Below, piece after piece: positions 2,472 through 63,515 of a stretch of 64,000 nt of DNA. Every line of letters begins with the position of its first letter. Position 1 is the first letter of the stretch. The stretch spans positions 1,584-65,583 of the forward strand of contig MGIW01000006.1 in the NCBI GenBank assembly GCA_001793945.1, given 5' to 3'. The notes under the pieces were generated by a model. It made no database searches. It saw only the letters and a list, made by a program, of their open reading frames with translations, and was not told the DNA's origin. The position numbers and the translations under genes are program-made. The stretch is from Candidatus Wolfebacteria bacterium RIFOXYD12_FULL_48_21. GTDB lineage: Bacteria > Patescibacteriota > Minisyncoccia > UBA6257 > UBA9933.

Positions 2472-2945
2472 ATGCTTACTAAAAAAGAGATCGATCAGCT
2501 TGCCGTGCTTTTAAAAAAAATAGACAACCCGCGTGGCGGATTGCCGCAGCCTGTGTTTGATGCGCTCTGTGGCGTTGTGCCGTTCGTTGCGTGTGAGCTT
2601 GCCATTATGAACAAAAAAGGGGAGCTGTTGCTTGCATGGCGGGAGGACCAATGGTGGAAGGGCTGGCATTTCCCCGGAGGGCTGATGCGCCACCGGGAAA
2701 CATTTGATGAGCGCATCAAAGCGACGGCATTGCGGGAGGTTGGTATTGATGTGAAAAAACATTCGTTTCTTTTTCCTATCAATTATTCCGAAGGAAGACG
2801 CGGACCAACGGTGTCACTTGTATTTTTGTGCCATGCAGAAACATCCACGGAGGGCAAGTTTTTTAAGACCATGCCAAAGGATATCATTCCCGAGCATCGG
2901 GAAATGTGGAGGGGGATTCGCAAGGCGATTAGGGATGAGGTGTGA
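2472..2945 (+). CDS. NUDIX-family hydrolase (start moved to internal Met; the ORF-track N-terminus 2289-2471 reads through repeat DNA)
   Basis: Nudix-box-like GGLMRHRETFDERIKATALREVGI; the N-terminal 61 aa of ORF 2289.. are translations of palindromic repeats. Confidence 0.5.
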   Translation: MLTKKEIDQLAVLLKKIDNPRGGLPQPVFDALCGVVPFVACELAIMNKKGELLLAWREDQWWKGWHFPGGLMRHRETFDERIKATALREVGIDVKKHSFLFPINYSEGRRGPTVSLVFLCHAETSTEGKFFKTMPKDIIPEHREMWRGIRKAIRDEV

Positions 2946-3010
2946 GGTGAGAGGTGAGAGGGGGGAGGTGTGAGATGAGAGGTGTGAGATGAGAGATGTG
3001 AGGAGAGAAG
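2938..3010. repeat. GA-rich repeat (gtgagaggtgagagg...gagatgagagatgtgagg)
   Basis: direct reading. Confidence 0.7.
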
Positions 3011-3027: not shown

Positions 3028-3412
3028 GTGTCATCCCCGTCCGCCAGCTGGCGGAGGGATCCAGGGTGCACATGCGAAATACTGGATTCCCGTTTTCACG
3101 GGAATGACAATGCGGGAGGGATAGGGGAAATAACCGATGACTGATAACCGATGACTGATGACGGGGTGCGAGGAGTGTGTCATCCCGAGTGCAACGAAGC
3201 GGAGCGGAGTGAAGTCGAGGGATCTGTAGTTATTGGTGGTGGCAGATTCCTCGACTGTGCGGGGTACCGCGGAGTTTACCCTGAGCTTGTCGAACGGGCT
3301 CGGAATGACAATGCAAAATGCTGGATCTCGGCTTTCCTGCCCGCAGTTGCTACAGCGTTGCAGACGGGTGCAGGAATGACAGAAAGAGGGACAGGAATGA
3401 CAATACAACTCG
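3028..3412. repeat. Cluster of palindromic GTCATTCC elements interleaved with (ATAACCGATGAC)n unit at 3128-3172
   Basis: gtgtcatccccgtccgccagctggcgga; attcccgttttcacgggaatgacaat; gtcatcccgagtgcaacgaagcggagcggag; ctgcccgcagttgctacagcgttgcagacgggtgcaggaatgac (45-bp module repeated at 33320-33375). Confidence 0.8.
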
Positions 3413-7330: not shown

Positions 7331-7363
7331 GGGTAATTTGAAGTTTTTAATTTAGAATTTAAA
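7331..7363. repeat. AT-rich boundary element GTAATTTGAAGTTTTTAATTTAGAATTTAAA (family GTAATTTGAAATTTAGAATT)
   Basis: 5 related copies: 7331, 7717, 15803, 58013, 60686. Confidence 0.75.
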
Positions 7364-7720
7364 ATGAATGAGAATGCATATAATCTTGAGCAGCGAACGC
7401 GAGAGTTTTCTGTTCAGGTAATACGATTTCTTAAAACATTACAACAGGATACTATAAGCAGGCCGATTATTGGTCAACTAATACGGTCTGCTACCAGTGT
7501 CGGTGCAAATTATTGTGAGGCAAATGGGGCAAGCTCAAAAAAAGATTTTTGCAATAAAATATTTATTTGCAAAAAAGAGGCCAAAGAAACACATTATTGG
7601 CTTGATCTTATCGAAGAATGTTGCGGATATAAGAAGGAGCTTAATCATTTAAGAAATGAATGTGTCGAGCTGATTAGAATATTTTCTAAAATAGCCGCAA
7701 GTAGCAAAGAGGAGAGGTAA
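7364..7720 (+). CDS. four-helix-bundle protein (23S rRNA intervening-sequence protein family, TIGR02436-like)
   Basis: 118 aa; signature SATSVGANYCEANGASSKKDF...KEAKETHYWL; two paralogs at 22429 and 63131. Confidence 0.8.
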   Translation: MNENAYNLEQRTREFSVQVIRFLKTLQQDTISRPIIGQLIRSATSVGANYCEANGASSKKDFCNKIFICKKEAKETHYWLDLIEECCGYKKELNHLRNECVELIRIFSKIAASSKEER

Positions 7721-7775
7721 TTTGAAATTTAGAATTTTTAATTTATATTTTCAAATTTCGAATTTCAAATTGTAA
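7717..7775. repeat. AT-rich boundary element (ggTAAtttgaaatttagaatttttaatttatattttcaaatttcgaatttcaaattg); supplies stop codon of 7364..7720
   Basis: direct repeat of element at 7331. Confidence 0.75.
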
Positions 7776-7787
7776 ATTATCCAATGT

Positions 7788-15070: not shown

Positions 15071-15808
15071 ATGCTTAAAGCGATCGTCAAAAAAACAAAA
15101 AAAATTGCATTGCTTCCGCTTATTATTGGGGATTATTTTGCATTCAAAAAAGCAGCCGGCCGTAACGGGCGCTTTACCGTAAATCTTGGCGATGCTTATC
15201 CGTGTCCTTTTGACAAGACCATGTTGACCGGGTTTGATCGGCATTATGTGTATCATACCGCTTGGGCGGCGCGGAAGGTTGCGTACATAAAGCCGGAGGT
15301 CCATACGGATATATCTTCGAGTCTGTATTTTTCTTCCATCGTTTCGGCTTTTGTGCCGGTAACATTTTATGATTATCGGCCGGCCGATCTTCAGTTGAGC
15401 GGCTTGCTTAGTGAAAAGGCAGATCTGCTTGCATTGCCGTTTGCAGACAATAGTGTTGCGTCGCTTTCATGCATGCATACCGTGGAGCATGTGGGGCTGG
15501 GGCGCTATGGCGACCCTATCGACCTAGATGGCGACCTGAAGGCAATCAAGGAGTTGCAGCGGGTGCTTGCGCCGGGCGGATCGCTGTTGTTCGTAGTACC
15601 GATAGGCAAGGCAAAGATCCAATTTAATGCGCATCGCATCTATTCCTACGCCATGATCATGGAATATTTTAATGATCTTGAGTTGAGGGAGTTTTCGCTT
15701 ATTCCCGAAACAAGCGGCTCCATGATCGTCAATGCAACAAGAGAGCAGGCGGACGAGGAGGCATATGGATGTGGATGCTTTTGGTTTGTGAAGAAAGGGA
15801 ATGGGTAA
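15071..15808 (+). CDS. putative SAM-dependent methyltransferase (Methyltransf_11/DUF268-like); stop codon lies inside AT-rich boundary element
   Basis: LQRVLAPGGSLLFVVPIG motif II-like; weak overall. Confidence 0.4.
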   Translation: MLKAIVKKTKKIALLPLIIGDYFAFKKAAGRNGRFTVNLGDAYPCPFDKTMLTGFDRHYVYHTAWAARKVAYIKPEVHTDISSSLYFSSIVSAFVPVTFYDYRPADLQLSGLLSEKADLLALPFADNSVASLSCMHTVEHVGLGRYGDPIDLDGDLKAIKELQRVLAPGGSLLFVVPIGKAKIQFNAHRIYSYAMIMEYFNDLELREFSLIPETSGSMIVNATREQADEEAYGCGCFWFVKKGNG

Positions 15809-15852
15809 TTTGAAATTTAGAATTTTAAATTTTAAATTTATAATTTTATATA
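15803..15852. repeat. AT-rich boundary element (gggtaatttgaaatttagaattttaaattttaaatttataattttatat)
   Basis: same family as 7331/7717. Confidence 0.75.
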
Positions 15853-16718
15853 TGATCATCATCAAATTAAAAGGAGGGTTGGGGAATCAGATGTTCCAGT
15901 ATGCGTGCGCGAAGCATTTGGCCGAGCGTAATGGTGATGTATTGAAATTGGACATCAGCCTTTACCAACCGGGCAATGCTCCCGCGGGCGATACCGCGCG
16001 TTCGTATGCCTTGGGCGCGTTTTCCATTTCCGCACAGGTGGCGAGCAAAGAAGAGGTCCGGCGGGTCAGGGGGCTACTGTGGCACATTATGGCATTAGCC
16101 ATGAAGGTCATTAACAGGGTGCGGCCGATATCCAGTTACATGTTTGACCCGCAGGTATTAGAACGCAGAGGCAATGTGTATCTGGATGGATATTTTCAAA
16201 GCGAGCGATATTTTAAGGATATAAAAGCTTGCATCAGAAATGAATTCCGATTGCGTGAACCTATGGGTGAGCAGGCGCAGGCCATGTTGCGCGACATCGA
16301 CGGATCGGATTCCGTTTCCCTGCATATACGGCGAGGCGATTATGTGACAAATAAAAACGCCAATGCGTTTCATGGGACCTGCCCGCCCGAATATTATCAT
16401 GCGGCTATCAAGGAAATAGGTAAGCATGTACATTCGCCGAAGTTCTTCATATTTTCTGATGACATCGAATGGGCAAAAGCGGATGTCGGCATGCCGGCTC
16501 ATGCTACCTATGTGTCCCGCGATGGCATAGCAGATTATGAGGAGCTTTTATTGATGAGCAAGTGCAAGCACAACATCATCGCGAACAGCAGTTTTAGCTG
16601 GTGGGGTGCGTGGCTCAATGCAAACTCGAACAAGATCGTTGTTGCGCCGAAGCGGTGGATAAACGACGAGCGTGTCGATACGAGTGATGCGGTGCCTGTG
16701 GAATGGGTTAGTATGTGA
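15852..16718 (+). CDS. alpha-1,2-fucosyltransferase (GT11); start moved from 15801 (which reads through the AT-rich repeat) to Met 15852
   Basis: IIKLKGGLGNQMFQYACAKHLA = canonical GT11 N-terminal motif (FutC-like). Confidence 0.75.
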   Translation: MIIIKLKGGLGNQMFQYACAKHLAERNGDVLKLDISLYQPGNAPAGDTARSYALGAFSISAQVASKEEVRRVRGLLWHIMALAMKVINRVRPISSYMFDPQVLERRGNVYLDGYFQSERYFKDIKACIRNEFRLREPMGEQAQAMLRDIDGSDSVSLHIRRGDYVTNKNANAFHGTCPPEYYHAAIKEIGKHVHSPKFFIFSDDIEWAKADVGMPAHATYVSRDGIADYEELLLMSKCKHNIIANSSFSWWGAWLNANSNKIVVAPKRWINDERVDTSDAVPVEWVSM

Positions 16719-18565: not shown

Positions 18566-18690
18566 GATGTGAGGTTGGAGATGTGAGATTAGAGGTGTGA
18601 GGTTGGAGATGGGAGGTATGAGATGCGAGATGAGAGATGAGAGGTGAGAGATGCGAGGTTAGGGGGTGGAGATATGAGACGGGGGGCGGA
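18566..18690. repeat. GA-rich repeat tract (gtgaggttggagatgtgagattagaggtgtgagg...gagatgcgaggttaggggg)
   Basis: direct reading, lies between two minus-strand genes. Confidence 0.7.
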
Positions 18691-22363: not shown

Positions 22364-22367
22364 TAAT

Positions 22368-22399
22368 GTGAGATTGGAGGTTAGAGGTATGAGGTGTGG
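22368..22399. repeat. GA-rich repeat, left inverted repeat flanking four-helix-bundle gene
   Basis: gtgagattggaggttagaggtatgaggtgtgg; reverse complement recurs at 22811-22855. Confidence 0.65.
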
Positions 22400-22428: not shown

Positions 22429-22809
22429 ATGAACGGAGAATCCTTAAAGATTAGATCGTTTACTGATTTACATGCGTGGCAAGAAGCGCATGCATTAGTG
22501 GTGGCTATTTATACGCTGACAAAGTTGTTTCCCAAGGAAGAGCTTTTTGGATTAACCTCTCAAGTTCGTCGTGCCGCCATATCGGTTCCTTCTAATATTG
22601 CCGAGGGGTTTAGTAGGGGTTCATATAAAGAACGCCATCAATTCTATTCAATAGCAAGGGGATCTCTTACCGAAGTGCAGAGCCAGCTACTTATTGCGCG
22701 AGATGTACATTATATTAATAGGGACATGTGTGAAAAGCTATTTTTGCAAACAGAGACAGTTAGTCGGATAATAAATGGACTTATGAAAAGCACTAAAGCA
22801 TTATGTTGA
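22429..22809 (+). CDS. four-helix-bundle protein (23S rRNA IVS protein family)
   Basis: 126 aa, LTSQVRRAAISVPSNIAEGFSRGSYKERHQFYSIARGSLTEVQSQL. Confidence 0.8.
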   Translation: MNGESLKIRSFTDLHAWQEAHALVVAIYTLTKLFPKEELFGLTSQVRRAAISVPSNIAEGFSRGSYKERHQFYSIARGSLTEVQSQLLIARDVHYINRDMCEKLFLQTETVSRIINGLMKSTKALC

Positions 22810-22810
22810 T

Positions 22811-22855
22811 TATCTTATCTCTCACCTCTGACCTCATACCTCTCATCTCACACCC
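22811..22855. repeat. TC-rich repeat, right inverted repeat partner (tatcttatctctcacctctgacctcatacctctcatctcacaccc)
   Basis: shares cctcatacctct and atctcac with reverse complement of 22368-22399. Confidence 0.65.
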
Positions 22856-24196: not shown

Positions 24197-24214
24197 GGGG
24201 GGTAGTATGTATTT

Positions 24215-24240
24215 GGTATATGGTATACTGTATAATAATT
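24215..24240 (+). promoter_or_regulatory. extended -10-like promoter motif (tggtatatggtatactgtataat)
   Basis: TGGTATACT/TATAAT-like upstream of 24261. Confidence 0.35.
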
Positions 24241-24260
24241 AAATTATTATACTAAATACT

Positions 24261-25096: not shown

Positions 25097-25270
25097 ATGA
25101 ACTATTTTAGTTGGGCAAAACTTATTCTTGGTCTTTGGGTGTTCGTTTCTCCATGGGTGCTCGGGTTTGCCGGATATCCACTCGCATTGTGGAGCAACAT
25201 TCTGAGCGGCGCGGGCATTGTTGTTCTTGTGCTTTGGACCTTGTTTGGGAAGAGGGATGCTAACAGATAA
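25097..25270 (+). CDS. SPW-repeat small membrane protein
   Basis: MNYFSWAKLILGLWVFVSPWVLGF; start moved to internal Met. Confidence 0.4.
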   Translation: MNYFSWAKLILGLWVFVSPWVLGFAGYPLALWSNILSGAGIVVLVLWTLFGKRDANR

Positions 25271-25420
25271 CAGATAACCAATAACCGATAACGAGATGCG
25301 AGGGAATAACCAATAACCAATAACAGATAACCAATAACCAATAACGGGATGCGGGAAATAACCTATGACAGATAACTAATAACCGATAACGAGATGCGAG
25401 GGGAAAACATAAAATTATTT
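25262..25420. repeat. (ATAACCRATRAC)n low-complexity repeat, three units each ending in G(A/G)GATGCG(A/G)GG
   Basis: taacagataacagataaccaataaccgataacgagatgcgaggg...ataaccaataacgggatgcggg...ataaccgataacgagatgcgagggg. Confidence 0.8.
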
Positions 25421-27715: not shown

Positions 27716-29227
27716 ATGAGATATTTTTTACAAACAATCTTTGCCGCTACTATTGTATTATTTTTTATTGCCAATGTTGGTACTGTTTTTGCCGCGGAGG
27801 GGGATTTGGTGTGGACGCAGGTCAATAACCCGAGTGCGATTTCTGATGCCGCGGGACCCATTGCCGTCGACGCGAGCGGCATTTATGTTGCGGGTTATGA
27901 TACAATCCCCGGCAATTACCAGTGGCGCATAGAAAAGCGCAGCCTTTCCGATGGTGCGGTTATATGGACCAAAACAAGTAACCCGAGTTCGGATACTGAT
28001 TATGCGACAGCCATTGCCATCGACGCGAGCGGCATTTATGTCGCTGGGTATGATTATGTTTCCGGCAGGTTCTTTCGATGGCGCATAGAAAAGCGCAGCC
28101 TTTCCGATGGCGCGGTCATATGGACCAAAACGAATGACCCGAGTGCGAGTCATGATATTGCTAACGCCATTACCATCGACGCGAGCGGTATTTATGTCGC
28201 CGGGTTTGATTCTATTCTCGCCAACTATCAATGGCGCATAGAAAAGCGCAGCCTTTCCGACGGCGCGATCATATGGACCAAAACGAACAACCCGAGTGCG
28301 GGCGGTGATTATGCGACAGCCATTACCGTCGACGCGAGCGGCATTTATGTCGCTGGGGTGGATGCTATTCCCGGAAACAATCAATGGCGCATAGAAAAGC
28401 GCAGCCTTTCCGACGGCGCGGTGATTTGGACCCAAACAAGCAATCCGAGTGCGCAACCTGAGGGTGTAGGCGCCATCACCGTCGACGCGAGCGGCATTTA
28501 TGTCGTCGGTGATGATTTTACTCCCGGTTTCGGCAATTCCCAATGGCGCATAGAAAAGCGCAGCCTTTCCGACGGCGCGGTGATTTGGACCCAAACAAGC
28601 AATCCGAGTGCGAGTTATGATGGCCCTGGATCCATTGCCATCAACGCGATCGGTATTTATGTCGCCGGGTTTGATTCTATTCTCGCCAACTATCAATGGC
28701 GCATAGAAAAGCACAGCCTTTCCGACGGTGCGGTCATATGGACTAAAACGAACAACCCGAGTGCGAGTTCTGATGTCCCGGGAGGCATTGCCGTTGATGC
28801 GATTGGTATTTATGTGGCGGGTAATGACCGTGCGTCCGTCAATGATCAATGGCGCATAGAAAAGCGTGAAAGAGCTTCCTTCATCTGCGCTGGTCCGTTT
28901 GCCGCATCTTGGACCGATTCGACCATTACCGCCAACAGCACCAAGATCCGCAAGGTGCACATCGACGAGTTGCGGAGCGCGATAAACACTCGTCGTATCG
29001 ACGCCGGGTTAACTAACTATTCTTGGACCGATCCGACGATCACAGCCAATTCCACCAAAATCCGTAAGGTGCACATTGATGACCTCCGCACGGCAATTTC
29101 GCAAGTCTATACGACCTGTGGGCAAGCGGCCCCGAGTTGGACCGATCCGACGATCACAGCCAACACCACCAAAATCCGCAAGGTGCATATTGATGAATTG
29201 CGGAGCGCGGTCAGTAATGCCCAATAA
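27716..29227 (+). CDS. secreted SBBP-type beta-propeller repeat protein with C-terminal triple 40-aa repeat
   Basis: signal peptide; 7-8 x ~50 aa blades WRIEKRSLSDGAVIWTKTNNPSA...IDASGIYVAGYD (SBBP-like DxSGnIYVTG); then 3 x SWTDPTITANSTKIRKVHIDELRSAI. Confidence 0.55.
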   Translation: MRYFLQTIFAATIVLFFIANVGTVFAAEGDLVWTQVNNPSAISDAAGPIAVDASGIYVAGYDTIPGNYQWRIEKRSLSDGAVIWTKTSNPSSDTDYATAIAIDASGIYVAGYDYVSGRFFRWRIEKRSLSDGAVIWTKTNDPSASHDIANAITIDASGIYVAGFDSILANYQWRIEKRSLSDGAIIWTKTNNPSAGGDYATAITVDASGIYVAGVDAIPGNNQWRIEKRSLSDGAVIWTQTSNPSAQPEGVGAITVDASGIYVVGDDFTPGFGNSQWRIEKRSLSDGAVIWTQTSNPSASYDGPGSIAINAIGIYVAGFDSILANYQWRIEKHSLSDGAVIWTKTNNPSASSDVPGGIAVDAIGIYVAGNDRASVNDQWRIEKRERASFICAGPFAASWTDSTITANSTKIRKVHIDELRSAINTRRIDAGLTNYSWTDPTITANSTKIRKVHIDDLRTAISQVYTTCGQAAPSWTDPTITANTTKIRKVHIDELRSAVSNAQ

Positions 29228-30471: not shown

Positions 30472-30915
30472 ATGGCAATGGAAGATGTAGCAAAATTGCG
30501 GGAATTGACCGGAGCGGGTGTTGTGGAGTGCAAAAAGGCACTCGATGAGGCAGCGGGGGATTTCGACCGTGCAAAAGACATCATTTTTGAGCGCGGCATC
30601 GCCCGAGCCGAGAAAAAGAGCGATCGTGCGACTGGCGCAGGGCTGTTGGAGACCTATATTCACAATGGCCGCGTGTCCGTTATGCTTGAACTGCGTTGCG
30701 AGACCGATTTTGTGGCGCGCAATGAAAAGTTTCAAGCCTTGGCGCACGACATCGCTATGCATATCGCCGCGATGAATCCGGCGACCGTTGAGGAATTGTA
30801 CGCCCAGCAGTATGTAAAGGATCCCTCCATGACTGTTGAGGAGCTGATCAAAAATTTGATTGGAACCATCGGGGAGAATATGAAGGTGGAGAAGTTTGTG
30901 AGATTCGAGATCTGA
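30472..30915 (+). CDS. tsf: elongation factor Ts (short form)
   Basis: 147 aa, VAKLRELTGAGVVECKKALDEA UBA-like N-terminus, conserved TDFVARNE motif. Confidence 0.85.
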   Translation: MAMEDVAKLRELTGAGVVECKKALDEAAGDFDRAKDIIFERGIARAEKKSDRATGAGLLETYIHNGRVSVMLELRCETDFVARNEKFQALAHDIAMHIAAMNPATVEELYAQQYVKDPSMTVEELIKNLIGTIGENMKVEKFVRFEI

Positions 30916-30944
30916 GATAAGAGATTAGTGGTGAGAGGTAAGAT

Positions 30945-45905: not shown

Positions 45906-46002
45906 TTGCTACTCCTCCTGTGTTTTTTTGATAAAAATTGTTGTTGGGTACTGGATTACTTATGACATATAATTTTAGAAATGTAAAGACCATAATGCGG
46001 GG

Positions 46003-46101
46003 CAGATTCCTCGTCCGCCGGCTGGCGGATCGGAATGGCAATGCAACATGCTGGATTCCCGCCTCCGCGGGAATGACAGAGAGATGGATGGGAATGACAC
46101 C
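46003..46101. repeat. palindromic elements (cagattcctcgtccgccggctggcggatcggaatggcaat; gattcccgcctccgcgggaatgacagagagatggatgggaatgacac)
   Basis: direct reading; forms spurious N-terminal extension of ORF 45938.. Confidence 0.8.
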
Positions 46102-48794: not shown

Positions 48795-49973
48795 ATGAAA
48801 AACCTTTCCGCATTGTACGACCGGAATCTTTCCGAAGAGATCGTCATCGTTCGCGTCGATCTGAATATTAATAACAAGACCTTGCGTGTAAGCGGGCCTA
48901 ATTTGCGCGTCACCTCCATTATCCCAACGATCAAATTCTTGACCAAGCGTGGCGCAAAGGTCGTGCTGGTCAGCCATCGGGGAAGACCGGCTGGCGTAAC
49001 CAATAACCAACGACCAATAACCGATAACATAAAAGAATTTACATTGAAACCGTTTGCGAAGATCCTTGGTGGATTACTGAAGAAAGATGTTTCGTTTATT
49101 CCGCACGATACGAAAGAATATCGTTTGTTTTCGGATGCGAGCGCCGAGAAGATCAAAAAAGCCTCAAAGGGTTCCGTGTTCCTGCTTGAAAACATGCGTT
49201 TCTTTGCCGGCGAAGAGAAGAACGACCCCGCCGTCGTGCGTCCGCTTGCGGAGCTGGGTACATTTTATGTGAATGACGCATTTGCCGTCAGTCATCGCAA
49301 GAACGCTTCGGTGGTCGCCATCACCAAGCTATTGCCTTCGTGCGCGGGGCTTCTGTTGGAAAAGGAAGTGTTTCATATGGACGAAGCAATCAATAACCAT
49401 AAACATCCGTTTGTGGTCATTTTGGGTGGCGCAAAAATGACCGACAAGATGGGGCTGATCAAGCGCTTTATCGGCAAAGCCGATTACTTTCTCGCGGGGG
49501 GTGGCGTGGCCAATACATTTTTTGCGGCCGACGGCCTGCCGATCGGCGATTCCATTTATGAATCGCACATGATCCCCGTTGCAAAAAAGATCATGAAAAC
49601 GAACAAGGTCATTATGCCTATGGATGTTGCCATTTTCGAACGAAAGATCGTAGACAACGGCCCGGGAACGACCGACGAGTGGGTGGAGATCATCAAAAAC
49701 GCAAAGACGATCATTTGGAATGGGCCGGTAGGCGTTATTGAAAACAAAAAATTTGCCAAGGGTTCCGTTGGCATTGCGCAGGCCATCGCCAAGAGCAAGG
49801 CGTTTTCTGTGGTGGGTGGTGGTGAAACAGCACTTGCCTTTACAGGCGTTCCGCTTAAAAAGAACACATTTCTTTCTACGGGGGGTGGTGCGATGTTGGA
49901 GTACCTTTCTGGCATCAAGCTGCCTGGAATAGAGGCGCTGCGCGAGAAAAAAGGAAAAGGAAAAAAGAAATAA
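48795..49973 (+). CDS. pgk: phosphoglycerate kinase carrying an in-frame (ATAACC)-repeat insertion
   Basis: 392 aa; VRVDLNI, SHRGRP, VFLLENMRFFAGEEKNDP, YVNDAFAVSHR motifs; between GRP and EFTLKPF sits GVTNNQRPITDNIK encoded by aaccaataaccaacgaccaataaccgataac. Confidence 0.9.
   Translation: MKNLSALYDRNLSEEIVIVRVDLNINNKTLRVSGPNLRVTSIIPTIKFLTKRGAKVVLVSHRGRPAGVTNNQRPITDNIKEFTLKPFAKILGGLLKKDVSFIPHDTKEYRLFSDASAEKIKKASKGSVFLLENMRFFAGEEKNDPAVVRPLAELGTFYVNDAFAVSHRKNASVVAITKLLPSCAGLLLEKEVFHMDEAINNHKHPFVVILGGAKMTDKMGLIKRFIGKADYFLAGGGVANTFFAADGLPIGDSIYESHMIPVAKKIMKTNKVIMPMDVAIFERKIVDNGPGTTDEWVEIIKNAKTIIWNGPVGVIENKKFAKGSVGIAQAIAKSKAFSVVGGGETALAFTGVPLKKNTFLSTGGGAMLEYLSGIKLPGIEALREKKGKGKKK
48998..49029. 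repeat. (ATAACCRAYRAC)n repeat embedded in frame in pgk
   Basis: sequence matches intergenic repeat units at 25262-25420. Confidence 0.75.
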
Positions 49974-49978
49974 GGAAA

Positions 49979-51052: not shown

Positions 51053-51580
51053 CCGCTATGTCGGTAGGGAGGCGATTACCTTTTTGCTTCGGCAAAGGGG
51101 AGGAAGGTCCGGACACTCATTTGTCCCACCGATCAGGCCAATGTCTTGCGGCAACGGTTGAAGCAACCGCGCTACCGCTTCGTGTTGTCGTGGGATGTTG
51201 ATCTGATCGGTGGGATATCTAACAAGATAGCGGCTAACAGCCGTCGGGAGCGATCCTCGAGGTGCGAGCAGAGACGCCGCAATTTGAAAAAATTGCGGGC
51301 CCTGTACCGCATGGTACAGGGTAGCTCTTATGGAAACATAGGAGGTGAAACGGCTAAATCCTTATCGGGTGCAAGGTCGTACTCTTGTCCTTCGGACAAG
51401 AACTTATAACCAATGACCTATAACTAATAACGGGAATTCTCGTTATGAGTTAATGGTCATGAGTTTTTGGTTCTTGCCCGGAGGGCAGGGGGGTACCGCA
51501 CGAACTTTGGAGCGATCCAAGGTCCAGATACATTATCGTCGAGACACAGAATCCGGCCTATCACCTGCCGATATAGCGGT
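51053..51580 (+). ncRNA. rnpB: RNase P RNA (bacterial type) containing a ~70-nt (ATAACC)-family repeat insertion at 51397-51470
   Basis: P4 strands GGAGGAAGGTCCGGACACTC and ACAGAATCCGGCCTA; terminal P1 pairing ccgctatgtcggtagggagg / cctatcacctgccgatatagcgg; followed by terminator. Confidence 0.75.
51397..51470. repeat. (ATAACC)-family hairpin element inside rnpB (cttataaccaatgacctataactaataacgggaattctcgttatgagttaatggtcatgag)
   Basis: shares ataaccaatgac / ataactaataac words with intergenic repeats; internal palindromes ataacg..cgttat and tgacc..ggtca. Confidence 0.6.
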
Positions 51581-51626: not shown

Positions 51627-51668
51627 ATGCTTTGCATTACGAAACTTCATTTGCTGCTTTAAAATAGC

Positions 51669-51752
51669 ACTGTCATCCTGAATTTATTTCAGGATCTCTC
51701 AGTGATATCAATCAGATTCTGAATCCGCCGGCTGGCGGATCAGAATGACAAA
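51669..51752. repeat. palindromic element variant (ctgtcatcctgaatttatttcaggatctc...cagattctgaatccgccggctggcggatcagaatgacaaa)
   Basis: direct reading. Confidence 0.75.
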
Positions 51753-53225: not shown

Positions 53226-53582
53226 TTAGTAGCTGCTGCGATATCCACCGCCGAAGCCTCCTCGTCCACCACGGTCTCCGCCACGTCCTCCGCCGAAGCC
53301 ACCGCCTCCGCCTTCACGGCGAGGTGCGCGCTCTTCCATCGGACGAGCAACGTTCACGGTCAAAGAACGTCCTTCGAAGTCCTTTCCGTTGAACATGTCG
53401 ATCGCTTTCTCGGCGTCCTCATCGGATGCCATTTCTACAAAGCCAAAACCCTTCGAGCGGCCGGTCATCTTATCGATGATGATCATGGCTGACTCTACGG
53501 TTCCTGCCTGGGAGAACAGATCGTTCAATGCGTCTTGGGTGGTTGCATACGGCAATCCACCTACGTATAATTTTTTGCCCAT
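53226..53582 (-). CDS. RRM-type glycine-rich RNA-binding protein
   Basis: KLYVGGLPY (RNP2) and KGFGFVEM (RNP1); C-terminal RGG/GGG tail. Confidence 0.8.
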   Translation of the reverse strand: MGKKLYVGGLPYATTQDALNDLFSQAGTVESAMIIIDKMTGRSKGFGFVEMASDEDAEKAIDMFNGKDFEGRSLTVNVARPMEERAPRREGGGGGFGGGRGGDRGGRGGFGGGYRSSY

Positions 53583-53776
53583 ATTGAGATAGTATATTTA
53601 ATTCTGTAAGTCGACCCTTCTCATAGGCCTCGAGAGCGCATAAAACAAAAACGTTTTACCTTCATTATCCACATCCGCTACAGCAGTTCAGGATTGGAAG
53701 CAAACTGAGAAAACTTACTGTTCACAGTATAAACCACCTCTCTATAAATAGCAAATGGCGTTGGGGGGGAGGGGGG

Positions 53777-53820
53777 ATAACTGATGACTGATGACTAATG
53801 ACCGATGACGGGATGCGGGG
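53777..53820. repeat. (ATAACTGATGAC)n repeat ending GGGATGCGGGG
   Basis: gataactgatgactgatgactaatgaccgatgacgggatgcgggg; preceded by G-tracts. Confidence 0.75.
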
Positions 53821-63130: not shown

Positions 63131-63484
63131 ATGCATAATTTTGAACACTTGGATGTGTATAACAAATCGCTGGATATCGTCAATCGTATCTATGGGGTGG
63201 TTAGGGCGTTTCCGAGAGAGGAGCTTTTTTCTTTATCGGATCAATTTAGGCGCGCTGCAACTTCCATTGTTTTGAATATCGCCGAAGGAAGCGGAAGAAG
63301 CAGAAAAGAATTCGCCCATTTCCTTACCGTATCCAGATCGTCTGCATATGAATGCAGTGCTATCGCCGAGATAGCACGAAGGAGGACATATGTCAGCGAA
63401 ACAGAGTTTAAAGAGCTTTATTGTGAATTGGAAGTGATTATCAAGATGCTTAATAGGCTCAGGCAATCCATCCGTGAACTGTGA
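63131..63484 (+). CDS. four-helix-bundle protein (23S rRNA IVS protein family), inserted between pilC and pilin gene
   Basis: LSDQFRRAATSIVLNIAEGSGRSRKEFAHFLTVSRSSAYECSAIAEI; flanked by inverted agttcacgg / ccgtgaact. Confidence 0.8.
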   Translation: MHNFEHLDVYNKSLDIVNRIYGVVRAFPREELFSLSDQFRRAATSIVLNIAEGSGRSRKEFAHFLTVSRSSAYECSAIAEIARRRTYVSETEFKELYCELEVIIKMLNRLRQSIREL

Positions 63485-63515
63485 ACCGTCGACCGTAAAC
63501 GGTGCCGTAGTTAAT

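What the first reader, a model, noticed from the sequence alone, without database searches (positions are those of the whole stretch)
48998..49029. (ATAACC)n low-complexity repeat inserted in frame in phosphoglycerate kinase
Within pgk, the DNA aaccaataaccaacgaccaataaccgataac lies between the conserved SHRGRP block and the EFTLKPF block. It is translated as TNNQRPITD. Canonical PGKs have about 6 residues here and this protein has about 15. The DNA words are those of the intergenic (ATAACCRATRAC)n repeats at 25262-25420, 3128-3172 and 53777-53820. So a second, unrelated repeat family also invades an essential CDS in frame.
Basis: partly seen in the sequence, partly recalled or inferred. Interest (0 to 1): 0.75.

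Follow-up and report, generated by a model that had tools for sequence, protein, structure and literature searches.

The report
Heptamer repeat array inside pgk loop
A short run of seven-base DNA repeats sits in frame inside an essential glycolysis gene of a tiny groundwater bacterium and lengthens one floppy loop of the enzyme; related bacteria carry many different seven-base repeats at the same spot, so repeat-prone DNA repeatedly remodels this core enzyme.

Summary
Window 48996-49030 holds five degenerate units (GTAACCA ATAACCA ACGACCA ATAACCG ATAAC). They lie in frame in a functional pgk gene (48795-49973, Candidatus Wolfebacteria), directly after the substrate-binding SHRGRP motif.

- **Insertion size:** the nearest short-loop relatives lack exactly 21 nt, which is 3 units or 7 residues.
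- **Stop avoidance:** the one unit that departs from consensus departs where TAA would fall in frame; it reads CGA.
- **Genome context:** the same words build intergenic arrays and a hairpin inside the RNase P RNA gene. Period-7 arrays are about 50 times more frequent than chance in the window.
- **Main result:** this loop is a clade-wide hotspot. In 119 related PGKs it varies from 3 to 32 residues with a 7-residue periodicity. DNA of ten relatives shows arrays of about eight different heptamer families there, some perfect.
- **Outside the clade:** the 49 PGKs from other bacteria that were sampled keep the canonical short loop.
- **Other genes:** sister lineages carry in-frame heptamer arrays in LeuRS, TIM and LepA.

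Best explanation: microsatellite slippage and turnover in place, filtered by reading frame, giving a tolerated disordered loop. Import from the intergenic arrays ("invasion") is not shown. This is a new variant of known heptamer-repeat and in-frame-repeat phenomena.

The parts
48795..49973 (+). pgk coding sequence (392 aa), carrier of the array
   Evidence: ORF list. Pfam PGK E 2.6e-104 over residues 9-373. 100% identical to the PGK of Candidatus Wolfebacteria RIFOXYD12_FULL_48_21. AF2 model pLDDT 91.5, TM 0.74-0.85 to solved PGKs.
48972..48989 (+). codons S60-H61-R62-G63-R64-P65, the conserved motif just upstream of the array
   Evidence: S60, H61 and G63 are invariant and R62, R64 and P65 at least 90% conserved in the clade alignments. 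The motif aligns to SHLGRP of solved PGKs. Its role in 3-phosphoglycerate binding is taken from established PGK literature, not tested here.
48996..49030 (+). heptanucleotide array: GTAACCA / ATAACCA / ACGACCA / ATAACCG / ATAAC(AT), read as V T N N Q R P I T D N I
   Evidence: TRF period 7, 4.6 copies, 80% matches. Period-7 run 48995-49034. It is the only one of the window's 23 runs that lies inside a credible CDS.
48997..49017 (+). the 21 nt (3 units, 7 codons) absent from the nearest short-loop relatives; placement within the repeat is arbitrary
   Evidence: DNA alignment A3: L001 (P0009) and L002 (P0010) show one 21-column gap here and are otherwise collinear.
49011..49013 (+). codon R73 = CGA, at positions 2-4 of unit 3. 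This is the only unit whose consensus TAA would be in frame.
   Evidence: Read directly from the sequence and frame. Restoring the consensus gives CAA TAA CCA.
49943..49978 (+). purine-rich period-7 array (GAAAAAR) that supplies the Lys-rich tail EKKGKGKKK, the stop codon and the spacer to the next gene
   Evidence: TRF rows 49946-49978. Run 49943-49978 covers the stop. Relatives have GAAAAAT/GAAAAAA versions. Residues 387-392 have pLDDT below 50.
25256..25390 (+). three blocks of intergenic ATAACCR / ATAACAG arrays separated by GRGATGCGRGG spacers; the first block supplies the last codons and stop of the upstream ORF
3130..3165 (+). intergenic ATAACCG / ATGACTG array of the same family
53764..53813 (+). 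intergenic GATAACT / GATGACY array of the same family, between the RRM-protein gene and the next + strand gene
51398..51475 (+). ATAACCR-family array plus its imperfect reverse complement, forming a hairpin inserted in the RNase P RNA gene (51060-51576)
   Evidence: 51406, 51420. RF00010 E 3.4e-23 with the full model covered, about 70 extra nt at model position 245/246. Hairpin -54.4 kcal/mol, z -9.7.

Best explanation
**What it is.** The segment is a degenerate five-unit heptanucleotide microsatellite (A-[T/C]-A-A-C-C-R) inside a working pgk gene. It lies in the coil that follows the SHRGRP motif.

**Context.** It is one state of a hypervariable site shared by the Wolfebacteria/Paceibacteria-like PGK clade, whose genomes are unusually rich in 7-nt tandem arrays.

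**Proposed mechanism (inferred).**
1. Arrays at this site grow, shrink and are homogenised in 7-nt steps, by slipped-strand mispairing or unequal exchange.
2. Because 7 and 3 share no factor, successive units are read in the three frames. This gives a 7-residue peptide period.
3. Selection on an essential enzyme passes only net changes divisible by 3, typically 3 units (21 nt, 7 residues), and only arrays without an in-frame stop.

**Result.** A longer, low-complexity loop, probably disordered, that the enzyme tolerates. It is most likely neutral or nearly so.

**Shown here:** the array, its frame, the 21-nt difference, the stop-avoiding substitution, the clade-wide hotspot with many different units, and the low model confidence of the loop.

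**Inferred:** slippage as the generating process, and neutrality.
For: - **Period 7 is specific and far above chance.** 23 runs against 0.4 in shuffles; other periods give 1-4.
- **Exact 21-nt difference** from L001 and L002, which keep GCAACCGATAACC, about 1.4 units, in the same register.
- **Homologous array in a relative.** L003 has a perfect (ACAACCG)x4.7 in the same register and of the same length.
- **Other units at the same site:** GAAAAAG (L004), CGAAAAA x4 perfect (L091), GAAATYY (L090), AATTTCY (L005, L085, L088), GGAATWA (L006), AAGTATC x4 perfect (L086), AAAAATC (L087).
- **Protein-level periodicity.** 119 homologous loops span 3-32 residues. Identity at a lag of 7 residues is 0.229 against 0.05-0.13 at other lags, and 112 matches are observed against 45.6 +/- 6.0 in shuffles.
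- **Back-translation test.** For 79 loops of at least 11 residues, one perfect stop-free heptamer array reproduces 58% of residues, against 39% for shuffled loops. The best case is 11 of 11.
- **Interleaved states.** Short and long loops are interleaved in a tree of relatives at 74% identity or more, and sisters carry different units.
- **Hotspot is clade-limited.** Other bacteria keep the canonical loop.
- **Stop avoidance.** Unit 3 reads CGA where consensus TAA would be in frame.
- **Structure.** The loop is coil with the lowest pLDDT of the protein body (71 and 60 for residues 61-80).
- **No RNA structure.** z = +0.13.
- **Gene looks functional.** Catalytic and substrate-binding residues are invariant.
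- **Literature.** Heptameric SSRs are over-represented in many bacteria, and polymerase slippage has been proposed as the cause (PMC4692102).
Against: - **No slippage event was seen.** P0001-P0004 have identical loops. L089 is uninformative because its first 329 nt are identical to the window through a mosaic.
- **Same units as the intergenic arrays.** The window array uses exactly the units of this genome's intergenic arrays, whereas L003 uses ACAACCG. Loop units resemble other arrays of the same locus more than arrays of other loci (1.0 against 1.75 mismatches). This hints at exchange between arrays or a shared sequence preference that simple local slippage does not explain.
- **Length differences are not always multiples of 7 residues.** P0005 is an example.
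- **Some CDS arrays elsewhere are not net insertions.** The TIM arrays replace native sequence.
- **Weak tree.** It is neighbour-joining without support values.
- **Data quality.** All data are metagenome assemblies, which can mis-assemble repeats.
Confidence: 0.68

Rival explanations
1. Import. The array, or its present unit composition, was copied into pgk from the genome's intergenic ATAACCR arrays. The route would be recombination or gene conversion between arrays, or a small mobile element that carries or targets heptamer arrays.
For: - The units ATAACCA and ATAACCG are identical to those at 25256-25390 and related to those at 3130, 53764 and 51406.
- The same family has entered the RNase P RNA gene as a hairpin.
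- Four of the five pgk units carry T at position 2, as the intergenic consensus does, where L003 has C. The exception is the unit where T would create a stop.
- Loop units are closer to other arrays of the same locus than to arrays of other loci.
- In L088 a 51-nt palindromic element sits in frame inside the pgk loop array, so small elements do enter these arrays.
Against: - L003 has the homologous array in the same register on a 9.8-kb contig with no other array. L001 and L002 have none in 12-13 kb.
- Short alleles retain a seed in register.
- There are no terminal repeats, hairpin or target duplication around the pgk array.
- Array lengths differ from site to site, so there is no defined element.
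- The similarity test is confounded by base composition and by the number of arrays per locus.
Confidence: 0.17
2. Selected function. The extended loop, or the repeat in the mRNA, is maintained because it does something. One option is a binding site for a protein that recognises heptamer repeats, as proposed for TAACTGA repeats. Another is a loop that tunes PGK or mediates an interaction.
For: - Expanded loops persist across a large clade: 85 of 120 homologues have at least 5 extra residues at this site.
- Some subclades keep a constant length while all units co-vary, for example KVSSIKYQVSS and KVQSSKFKVQS.
- Most arrays in the window abut start or stop codons, as MacGregor reported for TAACTGA (PMC4679880).
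- An RRM RNA-binding protein gene lies nearby.
Against: - The loop sequence is not conserved; about eight unit families are seen at DNA level and more by inference.
- Short-loop relatives are interleaved with long ones.
- The loop has low model confidence and is coil.
- No RNA structure is predicted.
- Relatives with the RRM gene have few arrays.
Confidence: 0.1
3. Phase variation. The array is a contingency locus that switches pgk on and off by 7-nt frameshifts.
For: The unit length is not divisible by 3. Perfect 4-5 unit arrays exist in relatives' pgk (L003, L086, L091), and these would be slippage-prone.
Against: - The window array is only 80% regular.
- pgk is a housekeeping enzyme, not a surface or restriction gene.
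- All 120 homologues retrieved are in frame.
- No frameshifted allele was seen.
Confidence: 0.03
4. Chance or ordinary divergence. This would be a lineage-specific loop that merely looks repetitive.
For: The array is short (35 nt) and imperfect.
Against: See the period-7 statistics, the perfect arrays at the same site in relatives and the 7-residue lag signal across 119 loops.
Confidence: 0.02

Closest known systems
Heptanucleotide tandem arrays of bacteria: STRR repeats of Calothrix/Nostoc, GGGAATC of Xanthomonas, TAACTGA direct repeats of Beggiatoaceae, cyanobacteria and Bacteroidetes (PMC4692102; PMC4679880)
   Same: - 7-nt head-to-tail units of 2 to tens of copies, strongly over-represented relative to other periods.
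- Mostly intergenic, often within a few nt of start codons or overlapping stop codons.
- Length and sequence vary between close relatives.
- A few copies lie inside ORFs.
- The window array at 53776 even contains TAACTGA and TGACTGA units.
   Different: - Here many unit families coexist in one genome.
- The in-ORF copy is in the middle of a core enzyme, next to a substrate-binding motif, not at a protein end.
- The same site is occupied by different units across a whole clade.
- No paper was found describing this in the Candidate Phyla Radiation.
Amino-acid tandem repeats of Borg elements (PMC9879509)
   Same: DNA tandem repeats arise both between and within genes, stay in frame, evolve fast and add disordered segments to proteins.
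   Different: Borg in-ORF units are all divisible by three and nearly perfect. Here the unit is 7 nt, is read in all three frames and is degenerate. The hosts are housekeeping enzymes of a small bacterial genome.
Rickettsia palindromic elements and other in-frame MITEs (review PMC10969869)
   Same: Genomic repeats inserted in frame into unrelated metabolic genes at positions compatible with the fold. L088 shows such a 51-nt palindromic element inside the pgk loop array.
   Different: The window segment is a tandem microsatellite. It is not a palindromic unit of fixed length, has no hairpin and has no defined ends.
Phase-variable simple sequence repeats (contingency loci)
   Same: A repeat tract inside a coding sequence whose unit is not a multiple of three.
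   Different: The tract is degenerate, the gene is essential and housekeeping, and no out-of-frame alleles were seen.
Low-complexity regions formed by short-repeat proliferation in prokaryotic proteins (PMC10120016, abstract seen)
   Same: Short DNA repeats proliferating inside genes create low-complexity protein segments.
   Different: That work is a general statistical trend. Here a specific 7-nt mechanism and a fixed hotspot can be followed at base resolution.

Membership tests
Phosphoglycerate kinase (PF00162) | Full-length match to the family profile | tested here: met
   E 2.6e-104, profile positions 3-378 of 379. 46 solved PGKs matched, best E 7.5e-74.
Phosphoglycerate kinase (PF00162) | Two-domain PGK fold | tested here: met
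   AF2 model pLDDT 91.5, pTM 0.89. Foldseek TM 0.74-0.85 to solved PGKs.
Phosphoglycerate kinase (PF00162) | Conserved substrate- and nucleotide-binding residues (basic patch R38, H61, R64, R135, R168; K214; GGGE 341-344; NGPxG 309-313) | tested here: met
   These residues are invariant or at least 90% conserved in the alignments and align to the same residues in solved PGKs. Their functional roles come from the PGK literature. Enzyme activity itself was not tested.
Heptanucleotide tandem arrays (bacterial 7-nt SSRs) | Head-to-tail units of 7 nt, at least 2-3 copies | tested here: met
   TRF period 7, 4.6 copies, 80% matches, no indels.
Heptanucleotide tandem arrays (bacterial 7-nt SSRs) | Genome-level excess of period 7 over neighbouring periods | tested here: met
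   23 period-7 runs against 1-4 for periods 5, 6, 8 and 9, and 0.4 in shuffles. 28 per 100 kb against 3.3 in other bacteria.
Heptanucleotide tandem arrays (bacterial 7-nt SSRs) | Length variation between relatives in whole units | tested here: met
   A 21-nt (3-unit) difference from L001 and L002. Loops of 6-7 against 13-17 residues among close relatives.
TAACTGA direct-repeat family (MacGregor 2015) | Unit sequence TAACTGA | tested here: not met
   The pgk units are RTAACCR and ACGACCA. Only the intergenic array at 53776 contains TAACTGA and TGACTGA.
Phase-variable contingency locus | Out-of-frame length alleles among close strains | tested here: inconclusive
   Four near-identical proteins share the same loop. 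L089 is identical across the array because of a mosaic. No read-level data are available, and both metagenome pattern scans found nothing.
Phase-variable contingency locus | Perfect or near-perfect tract | tested here: not met
   80% matches; unit 3 differs at two positions.
RPE / MITE-like in-frame palindromic element | Palindromic or terminal-inverted-repeat structure of fixed length | tested here: not met
   The predicted fold leaves the array unpaired, z +0.13. Arrays of this family have different lengths at each site.
Borg-type amino-acid tandem repeats | In-ORF unit length divisible by three | tested here: not met
   The unit is 7 nt. The Borg rule is stated in PMC9879509.

The most novel reading that the evidence does not exclude
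Wolfebacteria/Paceibacteria-like CPR bacteria may have a dedicated process that seeds and homogenises 7-nt arrays genome-wide, rather than only generic polymerase slippage. Candidates are an array-recognising protein, exchange between arrays, or a small mobile cassette such as the PF05635 genes bracketed by arrays. This process would write the arrays into fixed permissive sites of housekeeping proteins (PGK at two sites, LeuRS, TIM, LepA) and of RNase P RNA. The arrays are read in all three frames. If so, this would be an undescribed mode of insertional evolution of core genes in reduced genomes.
Probability: 0.2. Interest if true: 0.8.

Novelty: new variant of a known kind. Interest (0 to 1): 0.6.

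Why it matters
- **Non-triplet repeats in a core enzyme.** A 7-nt microsatellite can live inside an essential enzyme gene, one residue away from substrate-binding residues. It is read in three frames and held in check only by frame and stop-codon selection.
- **Repeated remodelling of one loop.** The same loop has been rewritten many times in one bacterial radiation.
- **A tractable study system.** Many natural alleles of one site are available for studying how repeat instability creates protein length variation and disordered loops in streamlined genomes.
- **Annotation warning.** Low-complexity "insertions" in CPR proteins and RNAs may be repeat-derived rather than functional.
- **Link to an older puzzle.** CPR genomes now join the question of why heptamer repeats are favoured in cyanobacteria, Beggiatoaceae, Bacteroidetes and Xanthomonas.

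Tried and rejected
- **Period 6 or 12 reading of the repeat.** Rejected: TRF and lag statistics give period 7.
- **GTDB scan for relatives.** It served only as a control set for canonical loops and array density, not for close relatives.
- **Two pattern scans of metagenome contigs for length alleles of the pgk array.** Both found nothing, not even sequences known to come from JGI samples. No population-level information was obtained.
- **L089 (P0004, 96% identity) for microevolution of the array.** Its first 329 nt are identical to the window and the rest is about 13% divergent, so it is a mosaic and uninformative.
- **RNA structure around the pgk array.** None was found (z +0.13).
- **Rfam at gathering threshold.** It missed the RNase P RNA. 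A permissive search was needed.
- **Literature searches for heptamer arrays in CPR, Parcubacteria or Patescibacteria.** Nothing was found. One search failed on term length.
- **Elhai et al. 2008 on small elements inserting into heptamer arrays of Nostoc.** The paper is not held, so that parallel rests on memory only.
- **Assumption that all in-CDS arrays are net insertions.** The TIM arrays of L087 are not.
- **Chance, assembly artefact and phase variation.** Considered and rejected or ranked low (see rival explanations).
Full report
**1. What is at the coordinates**

Window 48795..49973 (+) is a 392-codon ORF. It is a full-length phosphoglycerate kinase: Pfam PF00162, E 2.6e-104, with best solved relatives at E 7.5e-74. 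It is 100% identical to the PGK of Candidatus Wolfebacteria bacterium RIFOXYD12_FULL_48_21.

The flagged DNA lies between codons S60-H-R-G-R-P65 and E81-F-T-L-K-P-F. It is read as V68 T N N Q R P I T D N I79. HMMER alignments to Bacillus and Thermotoga PGKs open a 9-residue gap exactly here.

Tandem Repeats Finder gives period 7 (48997-49028, 4.6 copies, 80% matches, no indels). Parsed in register, the units are:

| Unit | Sequence | Coordinates |
|---|---|---|
| 1 | GTAACCA | 48996-49002 |
| 2 | ATAACCA | 49003-49009 |
| 3 | ACGACCA | 49010-49016 |
| 4 | ATAACCG | 49017-49023 |
| 5 | ATAAC(AT) | 49024-49030 |

**2. Is it more than chance?**

- A 21-nt sliding test for self-identity at lag 7 (at least 15 of 21) finds 23 runs in the 64 kb, against 0.4 in shuffled sequence. 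Lags 5, 6, 8 and 9 give 1-4 runs.
- The word ATAACCRATAAC with at most 1 mismatch occurs 17 times against 0.57 expected.
- Of the 23 arrays, only the pgk one lies inside a credible CDS. Eleven cover or abut a stop codon, including one at the end of pgk. Many lie within 60 nt upstream of a start codon.

**3. Frame logic**

Because 7 and 3 share no factor, successive units are read in frames 0, 1 and 2, so a perfect array encodes a 7-residue peptide period. The consensus unit ATAACCR contains TAA, so one unit in three would place a stop in frame.

In pgk that unit is number 3, and it is the one unit that departs from consensus. It reads A-CGA-CCA, where the consensus would give CAA TAA CCA. This is what purifying selection on a translated repeat should leave behind. 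The array then ends just before the next in-frame risk position.

**4. Close relatives**

Synteny (PolX - hypothetical - pgk - DHHA1 - Nramp) is conserved in contigs carrying PGKs that are 74-84% identical. The DNA at the loop is as follows (alignment A3):

| Locus (protein, identity) | Loop DNA at the site |
|---|---|
| L001 (P0009, 78%) | Short loop GCAACCGATAACCTG, about 1.4 units in the same register |
| L002 (P0010, 78%) | Short loop GCAACGGCGAATTTG; the unit is no longer recognisable |
| L003 (P0021, 74%) | Perfect (ACAACCG)x4.7, same register and length as the window array |
| L004 (P0005, 84%) | (GAAAAAG)n |
| L091 (P0011, 77%) | Perfect (CGAAAAA)x4 |
| L090 (P0008, 78%) | (GAAATTC/GAAATCT)x4.5 |
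| L092 (P0013, 76%) | Decayed GGNANAN units |

- The window equals L001 or L002 plus exactly 21 nt (3 units, 7 codons).
- In a neighbour-joining tree of loop-masked proteins, short loops (6-7 residues) and long loops (13-17 residues) are interleaved, and sister sequences carry different units (no support values).
- The flanks of L001-L003 contain no other period-7 array, and L004 has only the pgk loop, the pgk tail and two weak runs. The coding array therefore does not depend on a nearby intergenic family.

**5. The wider clade**

- Among the 120 best homologues (48-100% identity, all CPR), the loop between GRP and F/L-S/T-L ranges from 3 to 32 residues. 85 have at least 5 extra residues at reference positions 68-78.
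- Loop peptides show identity of 0.229 at a lag of 7 residues, against 0.05-0.13 at other lags. That is 112 matches against 45.6 +/- 6.0 in shuffles.
- For 79 loops of at least 11 residues, a single perfect stop-free heptamer array reproduces 58% of residues, against 39% for shuffled loops. Some cases are near-perfect, such as TKVQSSKFKVQS = (AAAGTTC)n, 11 of 11. More than 15 different best-fit units appear.
- DNA fetched for more distant members confirms this: (AATTTCC) in L085, perfect (AAGTATC)x4 in L086, (AAAAATC)x4 in L087, (AATTTCT) in L005 and L088, (GGAATWA) in L006.
- In L088 the array is split by a 51-nt palindromic element, still in frame.
- All 49 PGKs from other bacteria, and most of the more distant CPR PGKs, in a GTDB sample have the canonical short loop.

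**6. Not only pgk**

In four Paceibacteria-like loci with called genes, 15 of 32 period-7 runs lie inside coding sequences. These are a second pgk site near residues 340-370, four sites in LeuRS, two in TIM, and sites in LepA, UppS and FtsX. The two TIM arrays are not net insertions relative to Thermotoga TIM, so arrays can also replace native sequence.

Period-7 runs per 100 kb at the 16-of-21 threshold:

| Sequence set | Runs per 100 kb |
|---|---|
| This window | 28 |
| Paceibacteria-like loci | 30 |
| Other CPR loci | 7.5 |
| Other bacteria | 3.3 |

**7. Structure and function of the host protein**

An AlphaFold2 model built with 79 homologues has pLDDT 91.5 and pTM 0.89. It superposes on solved PGKs with TM 0.74-0.85.

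Residues 60-75 are coil. Blocks 61-70 and 71-80 have the lowest confidence of the protein body (71 and 60). The only worse part is the Lys-rich C-terminal tail (387-392 below 50), which is itself encoded by a GAAAAAR period-7 array spanning the stop codon.

Residues known from the PGK literature to bind 3-phosphoglycerate and nucleotide are invariant or nearly so in the clade. These are R38, H61, R64, R135, R168, K214, the GGGE motif and NGPxG. The gene therefore looks functional. No RNA structure is predicted over the array (z +0.13).

**8. Explanation**

The best-supported reading is an old microsatellite hotspot that evolves in place. Arrays expand, contract and are homogenised in 7-nt steps. 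Selection on an essential enzyme passes only in-frame, stop-free outcomes, mostly 21-nt steps. The site is permissive because it is a flexible loop that looks surface-exposed.

Steps shown here:
- the array and its reading frame;
- the 21-nt difference;
- the stop-avoiding substitution;
- many different units at one site;
- perfect arrays in some lineages, which points to recent homogenisation;
- low structural confidence of the loop.

Steps inferred: slippage as the process, and neutrality of the product.

The window's units match its intergenic arrays exactly, whereas L003's do not. Loop units are also closer to other arrays of the same locus than to arrays of other loci (mean 1.0 against 1.75 mismatches; only 5 of the valid derangements among 5,000 random permutations scored as low). 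That test is confounded by composition and array number, and the relatives' data argue against a recent arrival.

A selected role, at protein or RNA level, cannot be excluded. It is disfavoured by the lack of sequence conservation and by the interleaved short alleles. Phase variation and chance rank lowest.

**9. Comparison with what is known**

- Heptameric repeats are known to be over-represented in many bacteria. They have been described as STRR repeats in Calothrix, GGGAATC in Xanthomonas and GGGGAYT in Nostoc, and polymerase slippage has been proposed as the cause (PMC4692102).
- MacGregor (PMC4679880) described TAACTGA direct repeats next to start codons and overlapping stop codons, with a few in ORFs, mainly at protein ends. 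She noted the 7-residue translation. The window's intergenic arrays behave the same way.
- Borg tandem repeats also create in-frame disordered segments, but all their in-ORF units are divisible by three (PMC9879509).
- Rickettsia palindromic elements are the classic in-frame selfish repeats of metabolic genes (PMC10969869), but they are palindromic units of fixed size.

What is different here: a non-triplet repeat in the middle of a core enzyme next to its substrate-binding motif; a fixed hotspot occupied by many different units across a radiation; and the same phenomenon in several housekeeping genes and in RNase P RNA. I found no paper describing this for CPR bacteria. That is absence from the held library, not proof of novelty.

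**10. Verdict**

This is a new variant of known kinds (heptamer microsatellites and in-frame genomic repeats). Interest is moderate to high, because the hotspot and the three-frame reading are unexpected and can be followed at base resolution.

Noticed in passing
window 51060-51576 (+), insertion 51398-51475: RNase P RNA (class A, 76.3 bits, below the gathering score of 100; E 3.4e-23; full model covered). It carries an extra hairpin of about 70 nt at model position 245/246, made of an ATAACCR-family heptamer array paired to its own reverse complement (-54.4 kcal/mol, z -9.7). A second insertion of about 100 nt lies near model position 80-85. Rfam's default threshold misses the gene.
   Followed up: partly
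window 7364-7720, 22429-22809, 63131-63484 with arrays at 7337-7365, 7716-7783, 22366-22399, 22811-22852, 63469-63503: Three PF05635 (23S rRNA-intervening-sequence / bAvd-like four-helix-bundle) genes each abut period-7 arrays. The pair around 22429-22809 is an inverted pair (GAGGTNW and its complement) bracketing the gene. Five of the window's 23 arrays touch these three small genes, which may point to a cassette-like association.
   Followed up: partly
window 2924-3010, 7716-7783, 15797-15853, 18605-18665, 22366-22399, 22811-22852, 24200-24242, 25256-25295, 30897-30943, 49943-49978, 63469-63503: Eleven arrays cover or abut stop codons. Several supply the last codons plus the stop, for example ...VRFEI* at 30915, ...DANR* at 25270 and ...RDEV* at 2945. 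Others fill the whole spacer up to the next start codon, as reported for TAACTGA repeats in Beggiatoaceae.
   Followed up: partly
L086 15029-17464 (LeuRS, four arrays); L086 11014-11064 and L087 11078-11125 (second pgk site, residues about 340-370); L087 4980-5153 (TIM, two arrays); L088 4355-4391 (LepA): In-frame heptamer arrays lie inside other housekeeping genes of related CPR bacteria. The TIM arrays are not net insertions relative to Thermotoga TIM (1B9B), so arrays may overwrite native sequence as well as add to it.
   Followed up: partly
L088 10214-10264 (inside the pgk loop array): A 51-nt GC-rich palindromic element (CCCGCCTACGCTGAGCCTGCCTGCCGGACAGGCAGGGCTTCGGCGGGCAGG) is inserted in frame within the (AATTTCT)n array. 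Similar peptide signatures (IPACAKASAGR, LCLPADR, PCGRSREARQ) appear in the loops of P0089, P0082 and P0119.
   Followed up: no
PGK homologues, reference positions 31-35, 104-114, 352-355: These are further indel hotspots in the clade's PGKs. Their inserted peptides look like translated genomic repeats (GYEHGLTR, AFAKASAGRHGYETRLPAGRQGLTR, TQINADINADKRRK, NYAEIRRKKFRV), and they do not show a lag-7 signal.
   Followed up: no
L089 5001-6179 compared with window 48795-49973: The first 329 nt of pgk, and the upstream genes, are identical or 99% identical to the window. The remainder of pgk is about 13% divergent. This is either a recombination breakpoint inside pgk or a chimeric assembly.
   Followed up: partly
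window 27827-28866: A large tandem repeat (periods 153, 312 and 465 nt, 76-79% matches) lies inside the 503-aa ORF 27716-29227. It is probably a repeat-domain protein.
   Followed up: no
window about 3080-3110, 3175-3220, 45990-46090, 51660-51750: Short GC-rich palindromic elements of the type tggattcccg...cgggaatgac and gtcatcc...ggatc recur in spacers and generate spurious ORF text (WIPASAGMTE and similar). They often lie next to heptamer arrays.
   Followed up: no
window 53226-53582 (-): This gene encodes an RRM-type RNA-binding protein with a Gly/Arg-rich tail (PF00076, E 3.7e-25) and lies next to a heptamer array. The gene is syntenic in L002 and L004, which have few arrays, so there is no obvious correlation.
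   Followed up: no
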